A DNA stretch of 13,970 bases, taken from UHGV virus genome UHGV-0254771, one strand, 5' to 3'. The notes beneath the pieces were generated by a model. The model was not told where the DNA came from. It saw only the letters and a list, made by a program, of their open reading frames with translations, and made no database searches. Below, piece after piece: positions 6,440 through 9,873 of the stretch. The translations under genes and the position numbers were made by a program. The stretch comes from a virus. The first letter of the stretch is position 1. Each line of letters begins with the position of its first letter.

Positions 6440-6630
6440 GGACGCACCTCCGCCGTAGTTACGTATTTAACCGGGCTACCTTTCATTGAGATGGTTTCAC
6501 ACATCTCTGCCGCTTTCAGTTCCGCTGTTTTTCTGGATTTATAGCAACGGTGCCAGACAGATACATCCGTGCGAACTGATACATCGTTTCTGTATTCCGT
6601 AGTGGAGATGATGATTTCGTAACTAATCAT
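6436..6630 (-). CDS. Small hypothetical phage protein (64 aa)
   Basis: ORF linked to neighbours by 4-bp overlaps (6436..6439 and 6627..6630). No motif recognised. Confidence 0.45.
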   Translation of the reverse strand: MISYEIIISTTEYRNDVSVRTDVSVWHRCYKSRKTAELKAAEMCETISMKGSPVKYVTTAEVRP

Positions 6631-7178
6631 GGGCGAACCTCCTTGTCAGAACCATTCAGCCTGGAATCAACAAGTGCAGCGCCAAAAACAGCATCACCAA
6701 CACGGTCGTACAGTTTGCTAGCCAGCGGAGATTCAACGGCCTTAAGCATTGGATAAAGCTGGCTTGTCCAGATTTGATGGATTTCACGCAAATGCAGGTA
6801 TACGCCTCTGGCGTTTCGTGCGACAGCTGACATATCAGACGCATCGGCACCTGATAAACTCTTCTCCATCAGGTTAAAGGCGTTGATGTATGCCTCTTTG
6901 AACTGGGCAGCACGTTTACCAGTGAAGCCCATAGCAAGGAACGCGAAGCCATCACGGGTGATTTGATAGCAAGGTAGTTTGCGGCCTGTGCAATCGGTGT
7001 AATCACTCACCGAAAAATTGCGGGCAGTGAATGATGCGGAGCATTCAAGCGTGCGGATCTTTTTCAGTACATCGTCATGACGCTTGGAGAAGAAGTTGGC
7101 AACAGCCAGGGATGAAGTAACAGCCTGACCATCAACGATGGCAATTTCAGGTTGAGTGAGGGTTGGGATCGTAGCCAT
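6627..7178 (-). CDS. Rha-family phage regulatory protein (about 183 aa from the internal start)
   Basis: Segment ...VDGQAVTSSLAVANFFSKRHDDVLKKIRTLE... carries the (F)GKRHD(N/D)VLR-type signature I associate with Rha-family proteins. The ORF track extends to 7478 (283 aa), but the ATG at 7178..7176 has GGAGG about 8 nt upstream and places the Rha domain at the N-terminus, as is usual. The ATG at 7478 has no SD and would add 100 low-complexity residues. Confidence 0.65.
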   Translation of the reverse strand: MATIPTLTQPEIAIVDGQAVTSSLAVANFFSKRHDDVLKKIRTLECSASFTARNFSVSDYTDCTGRKLPCYQITRDGFAFLAMGFTGKRAAQFKEAYINAFNLMEKSLSGADASDMSAVARNARGVYLHLREIHQIWTSQLYPMLKAVESPLASKLYDRVGDAVFGAALVDSRLNGSDKEVRP

Positions 7179-7562
7179 GATGGCAGCCTCCGTTGACTGT
7201 GGAAAACTTCCACCACCGGAGCTGCGAAACTCACTGGTGGCAGACTGAACAGGGTTCGCAGTACCGGCGTCAACGGAGACCGGCGAGCCTTTCGGCTCCC
7301 CTGCCCAGCCCACCATAATTCTGGCGTGCGTGAGCGCGGACGATAAAAAAGACGCTGGCGCGTCATATATCGCCGTTGACAATTCCGGGCTGCGACCCCC
7401 GGCACCCGCTTTATAAGGTGCAGAGACAGTGTAACGTCCCGAAATTGCAGAATCAATATTTGGTCTTGAAATGATCATATAGCTGCTGATATCTTTAGAA
7501 CTGTTCTTGGATGTTTCGGAGCCGTTTTATGCGAAACAGCTCCCCGTTATTGATGTTGAGTG

Positions 7563-7587
7563 AGCCGGGTTACTCCCGGCTTTTTTT
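7563..7587 (+). terminator. Intrinsic terminator oriented for plus-strand transcripts (7-bp GC-rich stem, 5-nt loop, T7 tract)
   Basis: AGCCGGG (7563..7569), TTACT loop, CCCGGCT (7575..7581), then a T run through 7587. On the minus strand the stem is preceded by A and followed by CACTCAACAUC, so it works on plus-strand RNA only. The T tract abuts the stop codon of the minus-strand gene 7587..8300. Confidence 0.6.
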
Positions 7588-8300
7588 CACCGCTGCCAAC
7601 CAATAACCTGAAATAACCCCATTTTCGGGTGATACCAGCGAGTCCCTCGCGGTTCTGCTTCCTCCATAACCCGATAAAAAGCAGCCATAAACGGTTCCAC
7701 AGCAACAATTGCGCGACGTGACAACAATCCGTCCGGCGTCATGAACTCATGGGTGTCTGTAGGAATCTGATAGGCGTTCACCAGATTGCGGCATTTATCA
7801 TCTGACAAACCGGTTTTTGCTTTCAGTTGGCGATATCCGGCATAGCCCTCACGAATAGTGCCCTTTTTAATTTGCTCGACTGTTTCAGCAACGTGGCTGA
7901 CTTTTTCTTCCACCTGAGTGATCCGTTTCTGCTGACGAACTGCTTCAAGAGCCATCGCGGCAACCATTTCGATTTCGCTCATTGGCTTACGGATCTGTTC
8001 TTCCAGTTCGCGCCAGCGATCTACCAGGCGAGCAGTGAATTCAGGACAGAGCTGTGCGACGACAATGATGCTGTCGCGCTTACCTTGTTCTCCTTCAAAC
8101 AGGTAATGCTCATATTGAACTTTAAAACCTAAGTTATTGATTCTTTCGGAAACCTCAATTTGAGGAGACCGGACAACGCCACCTTTGGCTAATGTTTCAA
8201 TAGTGCGTTTCACATTGTCATGACGTTTACCCACCAGCTCTGCGATCTCAACGCTGGTCATGGATGCTTTGTCGTTAAAAATTGCGGTGTTCACTGCCAT
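7587..8300 (-). CDS. Rha-family phage regulatory / antirepressor-like protein with a divergent C-terminal domain (ORF6C-like)
   Basis: N-terminal MAVNTAIFNDKASMTSVEIAELVGKRHDNVKRTIETLAKGG carries the Rha-type KRHDNV signature; the C-terminal half is unrelated to the 6627..7178 paralog. Start is uncertain: ATG at 8300 has AAGGAG directly adjacent, GTG at 8294 has ideal 6-nt spacing, and the ORF track starts at 8336. Confidence 0.7.
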   Translation of the reverse strand: MAVNTAIFNDKASMTSVEIAELVGKRHDNVKRTIETLAKGGVVRSPQIEVSERINNLGFKVQYEHYLFEGEQGKRDSIIVVAQLCPEFTARLVDRWRELEEQIRKPMSEIEMVAAMALEAVRQQKRITQVEEKVSHVAETVEQIKKGTIREGYAGYRQLKAKTGLSDDKCRNLVNAYQIPTDTHEFMTPDGLLSRRAIVAVEPFMAAFYRVMEEAEPRGTRWYHPKMGLFQVIGWQR

Positions 8301-8413
8301 CTCCTTACGGATAAATTCTTTTAAGATTCCGCACATTCGTATTTATTGGTGCCGAACCTTCCTTCAGTTATCCTTTTGATCCCTATAAACAAAAGAACCA
8401 AAGGAGGTTCGAC

Positions 8414-8707
8414 ATGAAAGTTCAGGCCGTTGGTTTATTCTGGTTTCGCGATGCGATTCAGTATCATGAGCTCAAAAATATTTTTACTGATGCTGATGTG
8501 CTCTCCGACAGTTACACCGAGTGGAAACACGACGCTGAAAAATTGATTAAGCGTGTCGAAAGAAGCGGGCAACGAGTTATTAAAGTTGAAGCGGATACAG
8601 CCGAGTTCATCACCTGGTGTACAAGCGAAGGCATTGGAATCAATGCCGAAGGTAGAATGCAGTTCGCATCCTTTAAGGCTTACCAACAACTTCTCAGCGA
8701 ACGCTAA
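8414..8707 (+). CDS. Hypothetical protein (97 aa) encoded convergently to cro, inside the early-right operon
   Basis: Textbook RBS AAAGGAGGTTCGAC-ATG (AGGAGG at 8402..8407). Balanced charged composition and E. coli-like codon choice. Followed by a GC-rich hairpin (8714..8738) and T-rich tail. A minus-strand ORF (8435..8767) overlaps it entirely but looks like a shadow frame. Confidence 0.6.
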   Translation: MKVQAVGLFWFRDAIQYHELKNIFTDADVLSDSYTEWKHDAEKLIKRVERSGQRVIKVEADTAEFITWCTSEGIGINAEGRMQFASFKAYQQLLSER

Positions 8708-8713
8708 TGTGAT

Positions 8714-8746
8714 TGGGGCAATCGAAATGGTTGCCCCATCGTATTT
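8714..8746 (+). terminator. Probable terminator hairpin for the 8414..8707 gene
   Basis: TGGGGCAA (8714..8721) pairs with TTGCCCCA (8731..8738), 9-nt loop, followed by TCGTATTT and further T-rich sequence. The U tract is interrupted, so strength is uncertain. Confidence 0.4.
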
Positions 8747-8777
8747 AATAGTTATTTTTTCGCTCATATCACCACCA

Positions 8778-9050
8778 TCACTTCTCGTCCTCTGTGTGCG
8801 CTAAGCTTGGATTTGAAATTTTGCGTAACGAATCAGGAATTCCATCTTCAGGGTGAGGATAAAGATCTGGCCTTAAGCCATGTGGCGTGACCTTCCATGC
8901 AACTACTTCACATACGCGTAAAACGAAACGAGCAGGAATTGTGTTTTTTGAAAACCACTGATTCACCGCTTGCGGCGTCACACCAAGATTTCGCGCTATG
9001 GCATTTTGCGCAATTAATGCACGAAGTTTGTCGTAATCATTTCCTTTCAT
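8778..9050 (-). CDS. cro: Cro-like small HTH regulator (90 aa)
   Basis: Divergent from the CI-like repressor across an operator-rich intergenic region. Helix-turn-helix ...ALIAQNAIARNLGVTPQAVNQWFSK... Symbol given as functional analogy to lambda cro. Confidence 0.75.
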   Translation of the reverse strand: MKGNDYDKLRALIAQNAIARNLGVTPQAVNQWFSKNTIPARFVLRVCEVVAWKVTPHGLRPDLYPHPEDGIPDSLRKISNPSLAHTEDEK

Positions 9051-9183: not shown

Positions 9184-9873
9184 ATGAAGAACGTCAAAAA
9201 CACGGAAAATCGAATAGCCGCGATGCTGAAAGCAAAAGGATGGACTCAGGCTCAACTGGCCCGCAAGTTAGGTGTGAGTGCGCAATCAGTGCAGTACTGG
9301 ACAACAGGAAAAACATTTCCACGGAGTGATAAGCTCGCGCATTTATCCGAGATTAGCGGTTATCCACAATCCTGGTTCTTAGGTGAAGACTCCTCACCAA
9401 CCTTTTCCTCGCAAGAGAAACACCAGACAAGAACAGATAGCGTCGTGTTTAATGTCCTTGATGTTGAGTTTAGTTGCGGTGATGGAACTCATGTCCGTGG
9501 TGACTTGATAGATGTAGTGCGCTCAATAGAACTTGATCCTGAATATGCCCGACGCCTTGTTGGAAATCGGGCATTCAAAAATATAGAAATAGGTAACGCC
9601 AGAGGAGACAGTATGGCTCCCACAATCTCACCTGGCGACCTTCTTTTTCTTGATAAGACAGTAACTTATTTTGATGGCGATGGCATTTATGCATTTTGTT
9701 TTGATGGAGAATGCTACGTGAAAAGACTTCAAAAAATTGGAAGCAAAATCATGGTGTTATCTGATAACCCCAATTATCAACCATGGAGCATCGAAAAAGA
9801 GGGGTTAGCTCTGCTTTATATCCAGTCTAAAGTGATCTCATCAGTACCATTCAATATAAACAGATTTGGTTAG
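9184..9873 (+). CDS. cI: CI-type prophage repressor: N-terminal XRE-family HTH plus C-terminal S24 (LexA-like) autopeptidase domain
   Basis: HTH ...WTQAQLARKLGVSAQSVQYW...; C-terminal GDSMAPT (Ser nucleophile) and downstream VKRL (Lys) match the S24 autocleavage dyad. ATG at 9184 has AGGA about 7 nt upstream (track starts at a TTG, 9178). Followed by a strong terminator. Symbol is by analogy. Confidence 0.9.
   Translation: MKNVKNTENRIAAMLKAKGWTQAQLARKLGVSAQSVQYWTTGKTFPRSDKLAHLSEISGYPQSWFLGEDSSPTFSSQEKHQTRTDSVVFNVLDVEFSCGDGTHVRGDLIDVVRSIELDPEYARRLVGNRAFKNIEIGNARGDSMAPTISPGDLLFLDKTVTYFDGDGIYAFCFDGECYVKRLQKIGSKIMVLSDNPNYQPWSIEKEGLALLYIQSKVISSVPFNINRFG

What the first reader, a model, noticed from the sequence alone, without database searches (positions are those of the whole stretch)
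8337..8777. Plus-strand gene with a textbook RBS embedded against the flow of the early-right operon, with a long-range anti-SD pairing
Between cro and the first Rha gene, where lambda carries cII on the same strand as cro, the best ORF is on the opposite strand (8414..8707, 97 aa), convergent with cro. It has AAAGGAGG-N6-ATG and its own downstream hairpin (8714..8738), so early-right transcription would have to read antisense through it. Separately, CGAACCTTCCTT (8353..8364) is complementary, with one bulge, to AAGGAGGTTCG (8401..8411), which would sequester the SD in an 11-bp stem around a 36-nt loop. The arrangement suggests an independently regulated cargo gene, possibly controlled by transcriptional interference or a structured leader. 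A fully overlapping antisense ORF (8435..8767) begins 10 bp after the cro stop, so which strand is coding should be tested.
Basis: partly seen in the sequence, partly recalled or inferred. Interest (0 to 1): 0.6.

Follow-up and report, generated by a model that had tools for sequence, protein, structure and literature searches.

The report
Prophage moron with shared palindromic promoter head
The plus-strand ORF is a real 97-residue gene of unknown function, inserted backwards between cro and rha of an E. coli prophage, and its promoter and ribosome site sit in a roughly 70-bp palindromic "head" that many enterobacterial prophages reuse in front of unrelated small genes.

Summary
The plus ORF 8414..8707 is the coding one: dN/dS is 0.07-0.13 in the plus frame and about 1.1 in the minus frame. 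It has about 1000 homolog clusters and an AlphaFold model with pLDDT 95. The antisense ORF 8435..8767 is a shadow ORF.

A related phage, PhiR49_2, has cro overlapping roi with nothing between them. So 8295..8777 is an inserted moron with a promoter, RBS, gene and one-way terminator, pointing the same way as cI.

The "anti-SD" complementarity is real, conserved and covarying, but it probably does not act in the cargo mRNA. Its 5' arm lies between a -35-like TTGGTG and a -10-like box, which is a perfect TATAAT in some variants. All 37 variants fold better as minus-strand RNA, that is, as the early-right read-through transcript.

The same roughly 70-bp head precedes at least seven unrelated cargo families, including BssS-like and ECs1072-family proteins. 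It occurs in 562 of 5426 complete E. coli genomes and in several other Enterobacterales. Neither the function of the 97-aa protein nor that of the hairpin is shown.

The parts
7587..8294 (-). Downstream flank: Rha/Roi-family gene. Start taken as GTG 8294, with AAGGAG at 8306..8301.
   Evidence: Pfam Phage_pRha. PGAP coordinates in L001. N-terminus aligns with PhiR49_2 Roi.
8295..8345 (.). Left end of the insertion. It carries the RBS now used by rha and is absent from the empty site.
   Evidence: In PhiR49_2 the cro stop overlaps the roi start, with no intervening DNA.
8346..8351 (+). -35-like hexamer TTGGTG of the cargo promoter (inferred).
   Evidence: It is (T/C/A)TGG(T/A/C)G in all 37 unique heads. 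Conservation between unrelated flanks begins exactly here.
8369..8374 (+). -10-like hexamer TATCCT, 17 nt after the -35-like hexamer. Predicted transcription start about 8379-8382 (inferred).
   Evidence: 30 of 37 heads match TATAAT at 4 or more of 6 positions, at 16-18 nt spacing, against 12% of shuffles. Five heads have a perfect TATAAT.
8350..8414 (-). Imperfect palindrome: a roughly 26-bp hairpin that is most stable as minus-strand (early-right read-through) RNA.
   Evidence: Better on the minus strand in 37 of 37 variants. Covariation and slid controls. G.U cells 90 on minus against 16 on plus.
8400..8407 (+). Shine-Dalgarno sequence AAAGGAGG, 6 nt before the ATG.
   Evidence: Read directly from the sequence. 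GGAGGTTCGAC-ATG is conserved in front of every cargo type.
8414..8707 (+). Cargo gene: a 97-aa cytosolic protein (WP_000867914.1, phrog_4753) of unknown function.
8714..8738 (+). Intrinsic terminator stem-loop of the cargo transcript, with a T-rich tail running to about 8760. It works on the plus strand only.
   Evidence: It folds better as plus RNA in all 9 terminator variants that retain the hairpin. There is no U tract after it on the minus strand.
8435..8767 (-). Antisense shadow ORF (110 codons). It is not under protein-level selection.
   Evidence: dN/dS 0.95-1.26 and 47-55% amino-acid identity, against 76-82% for the plus product. It lies in the codon-aligned frame and stays open because the plus gene has a single TTA/CTA/TCA codon.
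8778..9050 (-). Upstream flank: cro-like HTH gene, first gene of the early-right operon.
   Evidence: Pfam YdaS_toxin and P22_Cro, and phrog_35. Annotated as Cro in PhiR49_2.

Best explanation
The interval 8295..8777 is a moron cassette inserted backwards between cro and rha of a lambdoid prophage.

What the cassette contains:
- A roughly 70-bp head carrying a sigma-70 promoter (TTGGTG, 17 nt, TATCCT; start about 8381) and a strong RBS.
- A real gene for a 97-residue soluble protein.
- A terminator that works only on the plus strand.

It points the same way as cI. It is therefore probably transcribed in the lysogen, while pR is repressed, and is read in antisense by early-right transcription during lytic growth.

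The head is a shared module. Enterobacterial prophages place it in front of at least seven unrelated small cargo genes at equivalent sites in the early-right operon.

The SD/anti-SD complementarity belongs to this head. It most likely forms a long hairpin in the minus-strand operon transcript, ending just before the RBS of the next operon gene. My preferred reading is that this hairpin insulates the operon mRNA from the inserted DNA. It would do so by locking up the CCUCC anti-SD that the cargo's SD creates on the operon RNA, and/or by acting as a processing or stability element.

Shown: the coding strand, the insertion, the shared head, the covariation and the strand asymmetry. Inferred: the promoter and transcription start, expression in the lysogen, and the function of the hairpin. 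The biochemical function of the protein is unknown; it is probably a dimeric accessory factor.
For: Coding strand
- Substitutions against homologs of 77-85% identity fall [16,7,52], [15,7,42] and so on by plus-frame codon position.
- dN/dS is 0.07-0.13 in the plus frame and 0.95-1.26 in the minus frame.
- phrog_4753 matches over the full length, E 2e-49.
- 994 clusters reach E<=1e-3 among 1.84 billion proteins, including tandem-domain fusions.
- AlphaFold2 gives pLDDT 95.3 and pTM 0.84.

Insertion
- PhiR49_2 has the same cI, cro and roi, with the cro stop overlapping the roi start.
- Homologs of 34-47% identity lie in the same antisense position near cro/cII.

Shared head
- Scans of IMG/VR with either arm recover 37 unique heads in front of nine protein clusters.
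- One cargo is BssS-like and one belongs to the ECs1072 family.
- A head identical to the window's precedes a BssS-like gene between the same flanks.
- The head is in 562 of 5426 complete E. coli genomes and in Salmonella, Citrobacter, Klebsiella, Hafnia, Xenorhabdus and Izhakiella.

Promoter inside the head
-. The next minus-strand gene's SD starts 1-3 nt from the head in most contexts, which leaves no room for a conserved upstream promoter.

Minus-strand hairpin
- All 37 heads fold better on the minus strand, mean -31.5 against -23.6 kcal/mol.
- 91% of cells are paired. 26 cells carry a change on both sides, against 11.8+-2.7 in shuffles (0 of 500 reach it). Slid controls give 35-51% paired.
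- G.U cells number 90 on the minus strand and 16 on the plus strand.
- As an internal control, the cargo terminator folds better on the plus strand in all 9 variants that retain it.

Expression
- ECs1072 was detected as a regulated transcript in O157 Sakai cultures (PMC2241611).
Against: - No transcript ends or expression data exist for this locus. The window's promoter is weak by consensus (3/6 and 4/6), and the generic promoter scan found nothing at its threshold.
- The strand asymmetry comes from related sequences and from a limited number of pair positions.
- Four more distant lineages (L040, L043, L044, L005) fold slightly better on the plus strand.
- The insulation idea has only weak in-silico support. 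Shuffling the decoy arm lowers the accessibility of the downstream RBS in 11 of 15 contexts, but not in the window's own context, where the rha RBS lies about 40 nt further away.
- No function could be assigned to the protein: no Pfam, NCBIfam or PADLOC hit, and the only structural neighbour is itself uncharacterised.
Confidence: 0.7

Rival explanations
1. The hairpin forms in the cargo (plus-strand) mRNA and sequesters the SD and AUG, so that translation of the 97-aa protein is gated, for example by temperature, processing or a trans factor.
For: - The SD and start codon lie in the 3' arm, and the plus-strand fold is significant (-21.9 kcal/mol, z -3.7).
- Covariation supports pairing as such.
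- Distant lineages, such as L040 at -37.4 against -31.6 kcal/mol, fold a little better on the plus strand.
Against: - The 5' arm lies between the conserved -35-like and -10-like hexamers.
- Sequence conservation starts exactly at the -35-like hexamer, and the neighbouring minus gene's RBS abuts it, so there is no conserved upstream promoter.
- The predicted 5'UTR 8379-8430 is unstructured (-6.3 kcal/mol, z -0.2).
- All 37 heads favour the minus strand, and G.U cells are 90 against 16.
Confidence: 0.12
2. The minus-strand ORF 8435..8767, in the cII position 10 nt after the cro stop, is the real gene or a second, overlapping gene.
For: - The antisense frame is open over most of the gene in 11 of 12 lineages.
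- It starts right after cro.
- The annotators of phage EKP1 called that strand.
- The N-terminal stretch beyond the plus stop codon looks similar between lineages.
Against: - Minus-frame dN/dS is 0.95-1.26, and its first codon position is the most variable.
- Its product is only 47-55% identical where the plus product is 76-82% identical.
- It lies in the codon-aligned shadow frame, which needs only that TTA, CTA and TCA be avoided. I counted 12 such codons in 11 lineages, against about 18 expected from typical E. coli codon usage. That expectation is my own rough estimate; the counts come. The depletion is not significant.
- It has no family hit.
- The similarity beyond the plus stop codon coincides with the conserved terminator stem.
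- Other cargo families have no spanning antisense ORF.
Confidence: 0.04
3. The palindrome acts at the DNA level. It could be two inverted binding sites for a regulator of the cargo promoter, a recombination boundary that mediates cargo exchange, or a relic of how the head arose, with no RNA role.
For: - The promoter spacer is unusually conserved (CCGAACCTTCC), which is typical of an operator.
- GAACC-N6-GGTTC at the RBS is itself a small palindrome.
- Cargo replacement happens exactly at the head.
Against: - The inner stem differs in sequence between variants but stays paired (CTTTTG/CAAAAG, CTGTTG/CAACAG, TTCTTGG/CTAAGAA). That fits a folded nucleic acid and not a protein site.
- A duplex or cruciform element should show no G.U strand asymmetry, yet 90 against 16 is observed.
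Confidence: 0.14

Closest known systems
Morons of lambdoid phages (Hendrix/Juhala concept; also used in PMC2629481 and PMC7067206)
   Same: A single gene with its own promoter and factor-independent terminator, inserted between two genes that are adjacent in a related phage. It is antisense to lytic genes, a position that PMC7067206 calls characteristic of accessory loci.
   Different: Here the promoter and RBS region is a conserved palindromic module shared by unrelated cargo genes. It sits inside the early-right operon next to cro, not in the late operon.
Lambda oop / pO antisense unit (from my own knowledge; the BTP1 OOP equivalent is noted in PMC7067206)
   Same: A leftward promoter located between the cro/cII region and the replication genes, firing against pR transcription and ending at an intrinsic terminator.
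   Different: oop is a 77-nt non-coding RNA that overlaps cII. This unit encodes a protein and overlaps no operon gene. I saw no sequence similarity.
[quoted passage not shown]
   Different: Sequence identity is 11-14% and there is no sequence-level hit. The 97-aa protein has no helix-turn-helix domain, and Aca2 and YdiL themselves are not hit. I could not see which residues of SO3848 align. SO3848 has no known function.
Conserved promoter regions of anti-CRISPR (acr-aca) operons
   Same: A conserved regulatory head with inverted repeats placed in front of variable small accessory genes in phages (PMC8434428, and my own knowledge).
   Different: No aca-like regulator gene accompanies the cargo here. 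The inverted repeat spans the whole promoter-to-ATG region and shows RNA-type covariation.
SD-sequestering leaders and RNA thermometers, such as the lambda cIII leader (from my own knowledge)
   Same: A stem pairs the Shine-Dalgarno sequence with an upstream pyrimidine tract.
   Different: The upstream partner is predicted to lie outside the mRNA, and the pairing is better on the opposite strand. There is no Rfam match.

Membership tests
Moron (independent transcription unit inserted in a phage operon) | Absent from an otherwise collinear related phage | tested here: met
   PhiR49_2 has the cro stop overlapping the roi start, with no cassette.
Moron (independent transcription unit inserted in a phage operon) | Own promoter upstream of the gene | tested here: inconclusive
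   Conserved TTGGTG-N17-TATCCT, with a perfect TATAAT in five variants. It falls below the generic scan threshold in this window, and there is no transcript mapping.
Moron (independent transcription unit inserted in a phage operon) | Own factor-independent terminator downstream | tested here: met
   Stem-loop 8714-8738 plus a T tract. It has plus-strand polarity in all 9 variants that retain it.
Moron (independent transcription unit inserted in a phage operon) | Expressed from the repressed prophage | not testable with these tools
   Only indirect evidence: same orientation as cI, and a different cargo behind the same head (ECs1072) was detected on O157 Sakai arrays.
phrog_4753 / the roughly 100-aa 'W..D..W..G..WC..R' protein family | Full-length profile match and conserved residues | tested here: met
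   phrog_4753 matches residues 1-97 of 97, E 1.8e-49. W10, D26, W37, G52, W68, C69 and R81 are invariant or nearly so in 94 sequences.
Aca2 / YdiL / SO3848 transcriptional regulators | [quoted passage not shown] | tested here: not met
   No HTH family hit. The model is strand-helix-helix-strand-helix-helix over 97 residues. Aca2 and YdiL are absent from the fold hits.
Aca2 / YdiL / SO3848 transcriptional regulators | C-terminal dimerisation fold with two parallel strands | tested here: inconclusive
SD-sequestering mRNA leader / RNA thermometer | Both arms of the stem lie within the regulated mRNA | tested here: not met
   This rests on prediction only. The 5' arm lies between the -35-like and -10-like hexamers, and the predicted UTR is unstructured. 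It needs 5' end mapping to settle.
SD-sequestering mRNA leader / RNA thermometer | Pairing conserved on the mRNA strand | tested here: not met
   80.9% of cells are paired on the plus strand against 91.1% on the minus strand. G.U cells are 16 against 90. All 37 heads are more stable on the minus strand.
Antisense overlapping protein-coding gene | Purifying selection in the second frame | tested here: not met
   Minus-frame dN/dS is 0.95-1.26.
Known RNA families (Rfam 15) | Covariance-model match at or near the gathering score | tested here: not met
   Only miRNA models at 18-22 bits, against thresholds of 67-80.
Known anti-phage defence proteins (PADLOC) | Profile match | tested here: not met
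   No family at E<=1 for either strand's product.

The most novel reading that the evidence does not exclude
Enterobacterial lambdoid prophages share a modular accessory-gene slot inside the early-right operon. It is defined by a roughly 70-bp dual-strand head. On one strand the head is a promoter plus RBS that expresses interchangeable small cargo genes in the lysogen. On the other strand it folds into a covarying hairpin in the operon mRNA that insulates the essential downstream genes from the inserted DNA. The cargo set (this 97-aa family, BssS-like, ECs1072-family, small membrane proteins and others) would then be an uncharted pool of lysogen-expressed host-modifying or anti-phage factors.
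Probability: 0.3. Interest if true: 0.7.

Novelty: new variant of a known kind. Interest (0 to 1): 0.55.

Why it matters
It also corrects at least one public annotation: phage EKP1 has the shadow strand called as the gene.
- The head is a simple sequence handle. Searching for it finds a whole set of uncharacterised genes, probably expressed in the lysogen, in about 10% of complete E. coli genomes, including O157:H7. Slots of this kind have often turned out to hold superinfection-exclusion, defence or host-physiology genes.
- If the minus-strand hairpin really protects the operon transcript, it would show how phages tolerate backward insertions into essential operons.
- The 97-aa family has about 1000 clusters, a confident fold and no Pfam entry. 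It is a reasonable target for functional work.

Tried and rejected
1. Dual coding, or the minus strand as the coding strand. I took this seriously because the antisense frame is open in distant homologs and EKP1 annotates it. I rejected it on codon-position counts and dN/dS and on the small number of TTA, CTA and TCA codons needed to close the frame.

2. The antisense ORF is kept open so that ribosomes can read through the moron and prevent Rho polarity. I rejected this because the other cargo families behind the same head have no spanning antisense ORF.

3. The hairpin is an intrinsic terminator for pR transcription. No U tract follows it on the minus strand in most variants. Only the window's variant has a weak 5-bp hairpin followed by a U-rich run at 8410..8395.

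4. A LexA box, or a minus-strand promoter, inside the head. I inspected this by eye and found no consistent match.

5. Function by homology. Pfam, NCBIfam, PADLOC, PDB sequence profiles, BFVD and source names gave only "hypothetical".

Single distant proteins found nothing in IMG/VR. The afdb50 fold library was unavailable.

7. Literature. No paper was found that describes this head or the protein WP_000867914.

8. In-silico test of the insulator idea. The effect was modest, and there was none in the window's own context.

Full report
**Layout.** The window is part of a lambdoid prophage. The same sequence occurs in E. coli strain S4, integrated next to a DUF72-family gene and yecN.
- Early-right genes run on the minus strand: cro-like 8778..9050, two Rha-family genes, replication genes including a DnaB-type helicase, and Q.
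- An S24-type cI-like repressor (about 9185..9873) and the leftward genes run on the plus strand.
- The finding lies between cro and the first rha gene.

- The plus ORF 8414..8707 (97 aa) and the antisense ORF 8435..8767 (110 aa) are both there.
- AAAGGAGG lies 6 nt before the ATG.
- The stem-loop 8714..8738 with a T-rich tail is picked up by the terminator scan and folds at -20.6 kcal/mol, z -3.0.
- The inverted repeat has arms 8350-8364 and 8400-8414. Its core pattern is expected 0.01 times per window by chance.

**Which strand codes.** The two ORFs share codon boundaries: plus position 3 is minus position 1. The minus frame therefore stays open whenever the plus gene avoids TTA, CTA and TCA. 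That made the question a real one, because distant homologs (about 30% identity) in phages EKP1 and Kp4865-4 also have an open antisense frame, and EKP1's annotators called that strand.
- Five homologs of 77-85% identity from IMG/VR settle it. Substitutions by plus-frame codon position are [16,7,52], [15,7,42], [16,8,52], [14,7,44] and [17,8,43].
- Nei-Gojobori dN/dS is 0.07-0.13 in the plus frame, or dS is saturated. It is 0.95-1.26 in the minus frame.
- The plus products are 76-82% identical, the minus products only 47-55%.
- The plus protein matches phrog_4753 end to end and has 994 cluster representatives at E<=1e-3, a few with two or three tandem copies of the domain.
- It folds with pLDDT 95.3.
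- The plus gene has one antisense-stop codon. Across 11 lineages I counted 12, where ordinary codon usage would give roughly 18 by my own estimate, so there is no convincing selection to keep the shadow frame open.
- The apparent similarity of minus-frame N-termini beyond the plus stop codon coincides with the conserved terminator stem.

**It is an insertion.** Phage PhiR49_2 has the same cI, cro and roi, but its cro stop overlaps the roi start. Everything from 8295 to 8777 is therefore extra DNA. The comparison also places the rha start at GTG 8294, as PGAP does. Homologs of only 34-47% identity occupy the same kind of site: plus-oriented like cI, and embedded against minus-strand early genes near cro, ydaT/cII, rha or replication genes.

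**The head is a shared module.**
- The upstream region is more conserved than the protein. EKP1's protein is 34% identical to the window's, yet its TTGGTGCCGAACC...GGAGGTTCGgcATG is nearly the same.
- Scanning IMG/VR with both arms, and then with the 3' arm alone, gave 37 unique heads. Every enterobacterial hit to the 3' arm also had a 5' arm, exact or with one or two substitutions.
- Behind the heads are nine protein clusters: this family, an ECs1072-family protein (NF033230), a BssS-family protein (PF13991) and several with no match. I count these as at least seven unrelated families.
- A Hafnia genome adds a small membrane protein.
- A head identical to the window's precedes the BssS-like gene between the same rha and cro flanks, so the cargo has been exchanged in place.
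- The head is present in 562 of 5426 complete E. coli genomes, with up to four places per genome. In O157:H7 it precedes the ECs1072-family gene between ydaT and the replication gene.
- A one-genome-per-species scan finds it in six Enterobacterales genera.

**A promoter inside the head.**
- Conservation begins exactly at (T/C)TGGTG. In most contexts the next minus-strand gene's SD starts 1-3 nt from it, and its start codon is 11-18 nt away. A conserved upstream promoter is therefore excluded.
- At 16-18 nt downstream, 30 of 37 heads match TATAAT at 4 or more of 6 positions (12% of shuffles do), and five are perfect TATAAT. Several others read TGnTAnnnT.
- In the window this gives TTGGTG 8346-8351, TATCCT 8369-8374, and a start near 8381.
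- The resulting 5'UTR is unstructured (-6.3 kcal/mol, z -0.2). The cargo's RBS should therefore be open, and the anti-SD arm should lie outside the mRNA. This is an inference. The generic promoter scan found nothing at its threshold.

**The palindrome favours the other strand.**
- All 37 heads fold more stably as minus-strand RNA (mean -31.5 against -23.6 kcal/mol). In the window the values are -29.3 (z -4.7) and -21.9 (z -3.7).
- On a 30-sequence alignment read as minus-strand RNA, 91.1% of cells pair. 26 cells carry changes on both sides, against 11.8+-2.7 in shuffles (0 of 500). Sliding the partners gives 35-51%.
- Several pairs run through U.A, U.G and C.G. G.U cells number 90 on the minus strand and 16 on the plus strand.
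- As a control for the method, the cargo terminator folds better on the plus strand in all 9 variants that retain it.
- Caveats: the sequences are related, and four more distant lineages lean slightly to the plus strand.

**What the hairpin might do.**
- It comes with the cassette, since it is absent from the empty site. It is not followed by a U tract. It ends just before the next operon gene's RBS, across at least six different downstream gene families.
- My preferred reading starts from the cargo's GGAGG, which puts a CCUCC anti-SD into the operon mRNA 60-80 nt upstream of the next gene's SD. The SD-like tract on the other arm would keep that anti-SD paired. The stable stem could also act as a processing or stabilising element.
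- A folding test gave weak support. Shuffling the decoy arm lowered the predicted accessibility of the downstream RBS in 11 of 15 contexts, but not in the window's own context.
- An RNase III site, a DNA-level role, or no function at all are not excluded.

**The protein.**
- It has no Pfam, NCBIfam or PADLOC family and no PDB sequence match. Public sources name it only "hypothetical" or "putative cytosolic protein".
[quoted passage not shown] The 97-aa protein lacks the HTH domain.
- Conserved residues are W10, D26, W37, G52, W68, C69 and R81.
- Distant 101-107-aa homologs are chromosomal in anaerobes. In two of three contexts they follow a rubrerythrin gene. This is a lead, not a function.

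**Verdict.** The proposed SD-sequestering leader is probably not how it works. The gene itself is an ordinary moron of unknown function. The more interesting result is the shared, two-strand head and the cargo slot it marks, which I did not find described in Rfam or in the searched literature.

Noticed in passing
L004 4001-4435 (Elizabethkingia phage EKP1, OM284015): The record annotates the antisense shadow ORF ("hypothetical protein 21") instead of the plus-strand homolog. The phage's head and its neighbouring genes (DUF4222, cI/cro type) look enterobacterial, so the host assignment may deserve a check. The same applies to Actinobacillus phage vB_Apl-pPE4, which carries a head 97% identical to one found in Salmonella and in IMG/VR contigs.
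   Followed up: partly
L026 and L033 (IMG/VR), equivalent to window 8519-8524: Two prophage variants carry a premature stop in the plus gene, giving products of 36 and 35 aa, while the shadow frame stays open. A Klebsiella copy is cut to 10 aa, and an ECs1072-type cargo in Izhakiella to 56 aa. Cargo genes in this slot decay in some lineages.
   Followed up: no
window 8410..8395, minus strand: A small hairpin GAACCUCCUUUGGUUC followed by UUUUGUUUAU looks like a weak intrinsic terminator for pR transcription. It would compete with the long hairpin. The U-rich tail is not conserved in other head variants.
   Followed up: partly
window 7587..8336: The longest rha ORF starts at ATG 8336. PGAP and the alignment with PhiR49_2 Roi place the start at GTG 8294, with AAGGAG 6 nt upstream. 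Two Rha-family genes lie in tandem (7587..8294 and 6627..7478).
   Followed up: yes
L238 3501-3806; L240-L242 (metagenome contigs): Distant 101-107-aa homologs of the cargo protein are chromosomal in anaerobic bacteria. In two of three contexts they sit directly downstream of a rubrerythrin or ferritin-like gene. Together with the invariant Trp-Cys motif, this hints at a redox or metal link.
   Followed up: partly
P0018 (506 aa), P0025 (206 aa), P0037 (319 aa): Some family members carry two or three tandem copies of the roughly 90-residue domain in one polypeptide, which fits a module that normally self-associates.
   Followed up: no
L055, L074, L105 (IMG/VR): A prophage BssS-family gene (PF13991, biofilm regulator family) sits behind a head identical to the window's, between the same rha and cro flanks. 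It has its own, different terminator.
   Followed up: partly
L235 (Hafnia paralvei ATCC 29927): The same head drives a 134-aa protein with an N-terminal transmembrane segment. This is the type often seen in superinfection-exclusion or abortive-infection morons. In this variant the two strands fold equally well.
   Followed up: no
L130 / L166 / L219 (Xenorhabdus type): Here the head follows a plus-strand terminator of a co-directional upstream gene, instead of abutting a minus-strand gene start. The cassette is therefore not always embedded antisense. Its SD-pairing segment is the most degenerate of all the variants.
   Followed up: no
L218 5448-5926 (O157:H7 strain 86-24 prophage): A RelB/RelE toxin-antitoxin pair sits immediately beside the cI-like gene of the O157 prophage that carries the ECs1072 cassette. 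This is another accessory insertion in the same immunity region.
   Followed up: no
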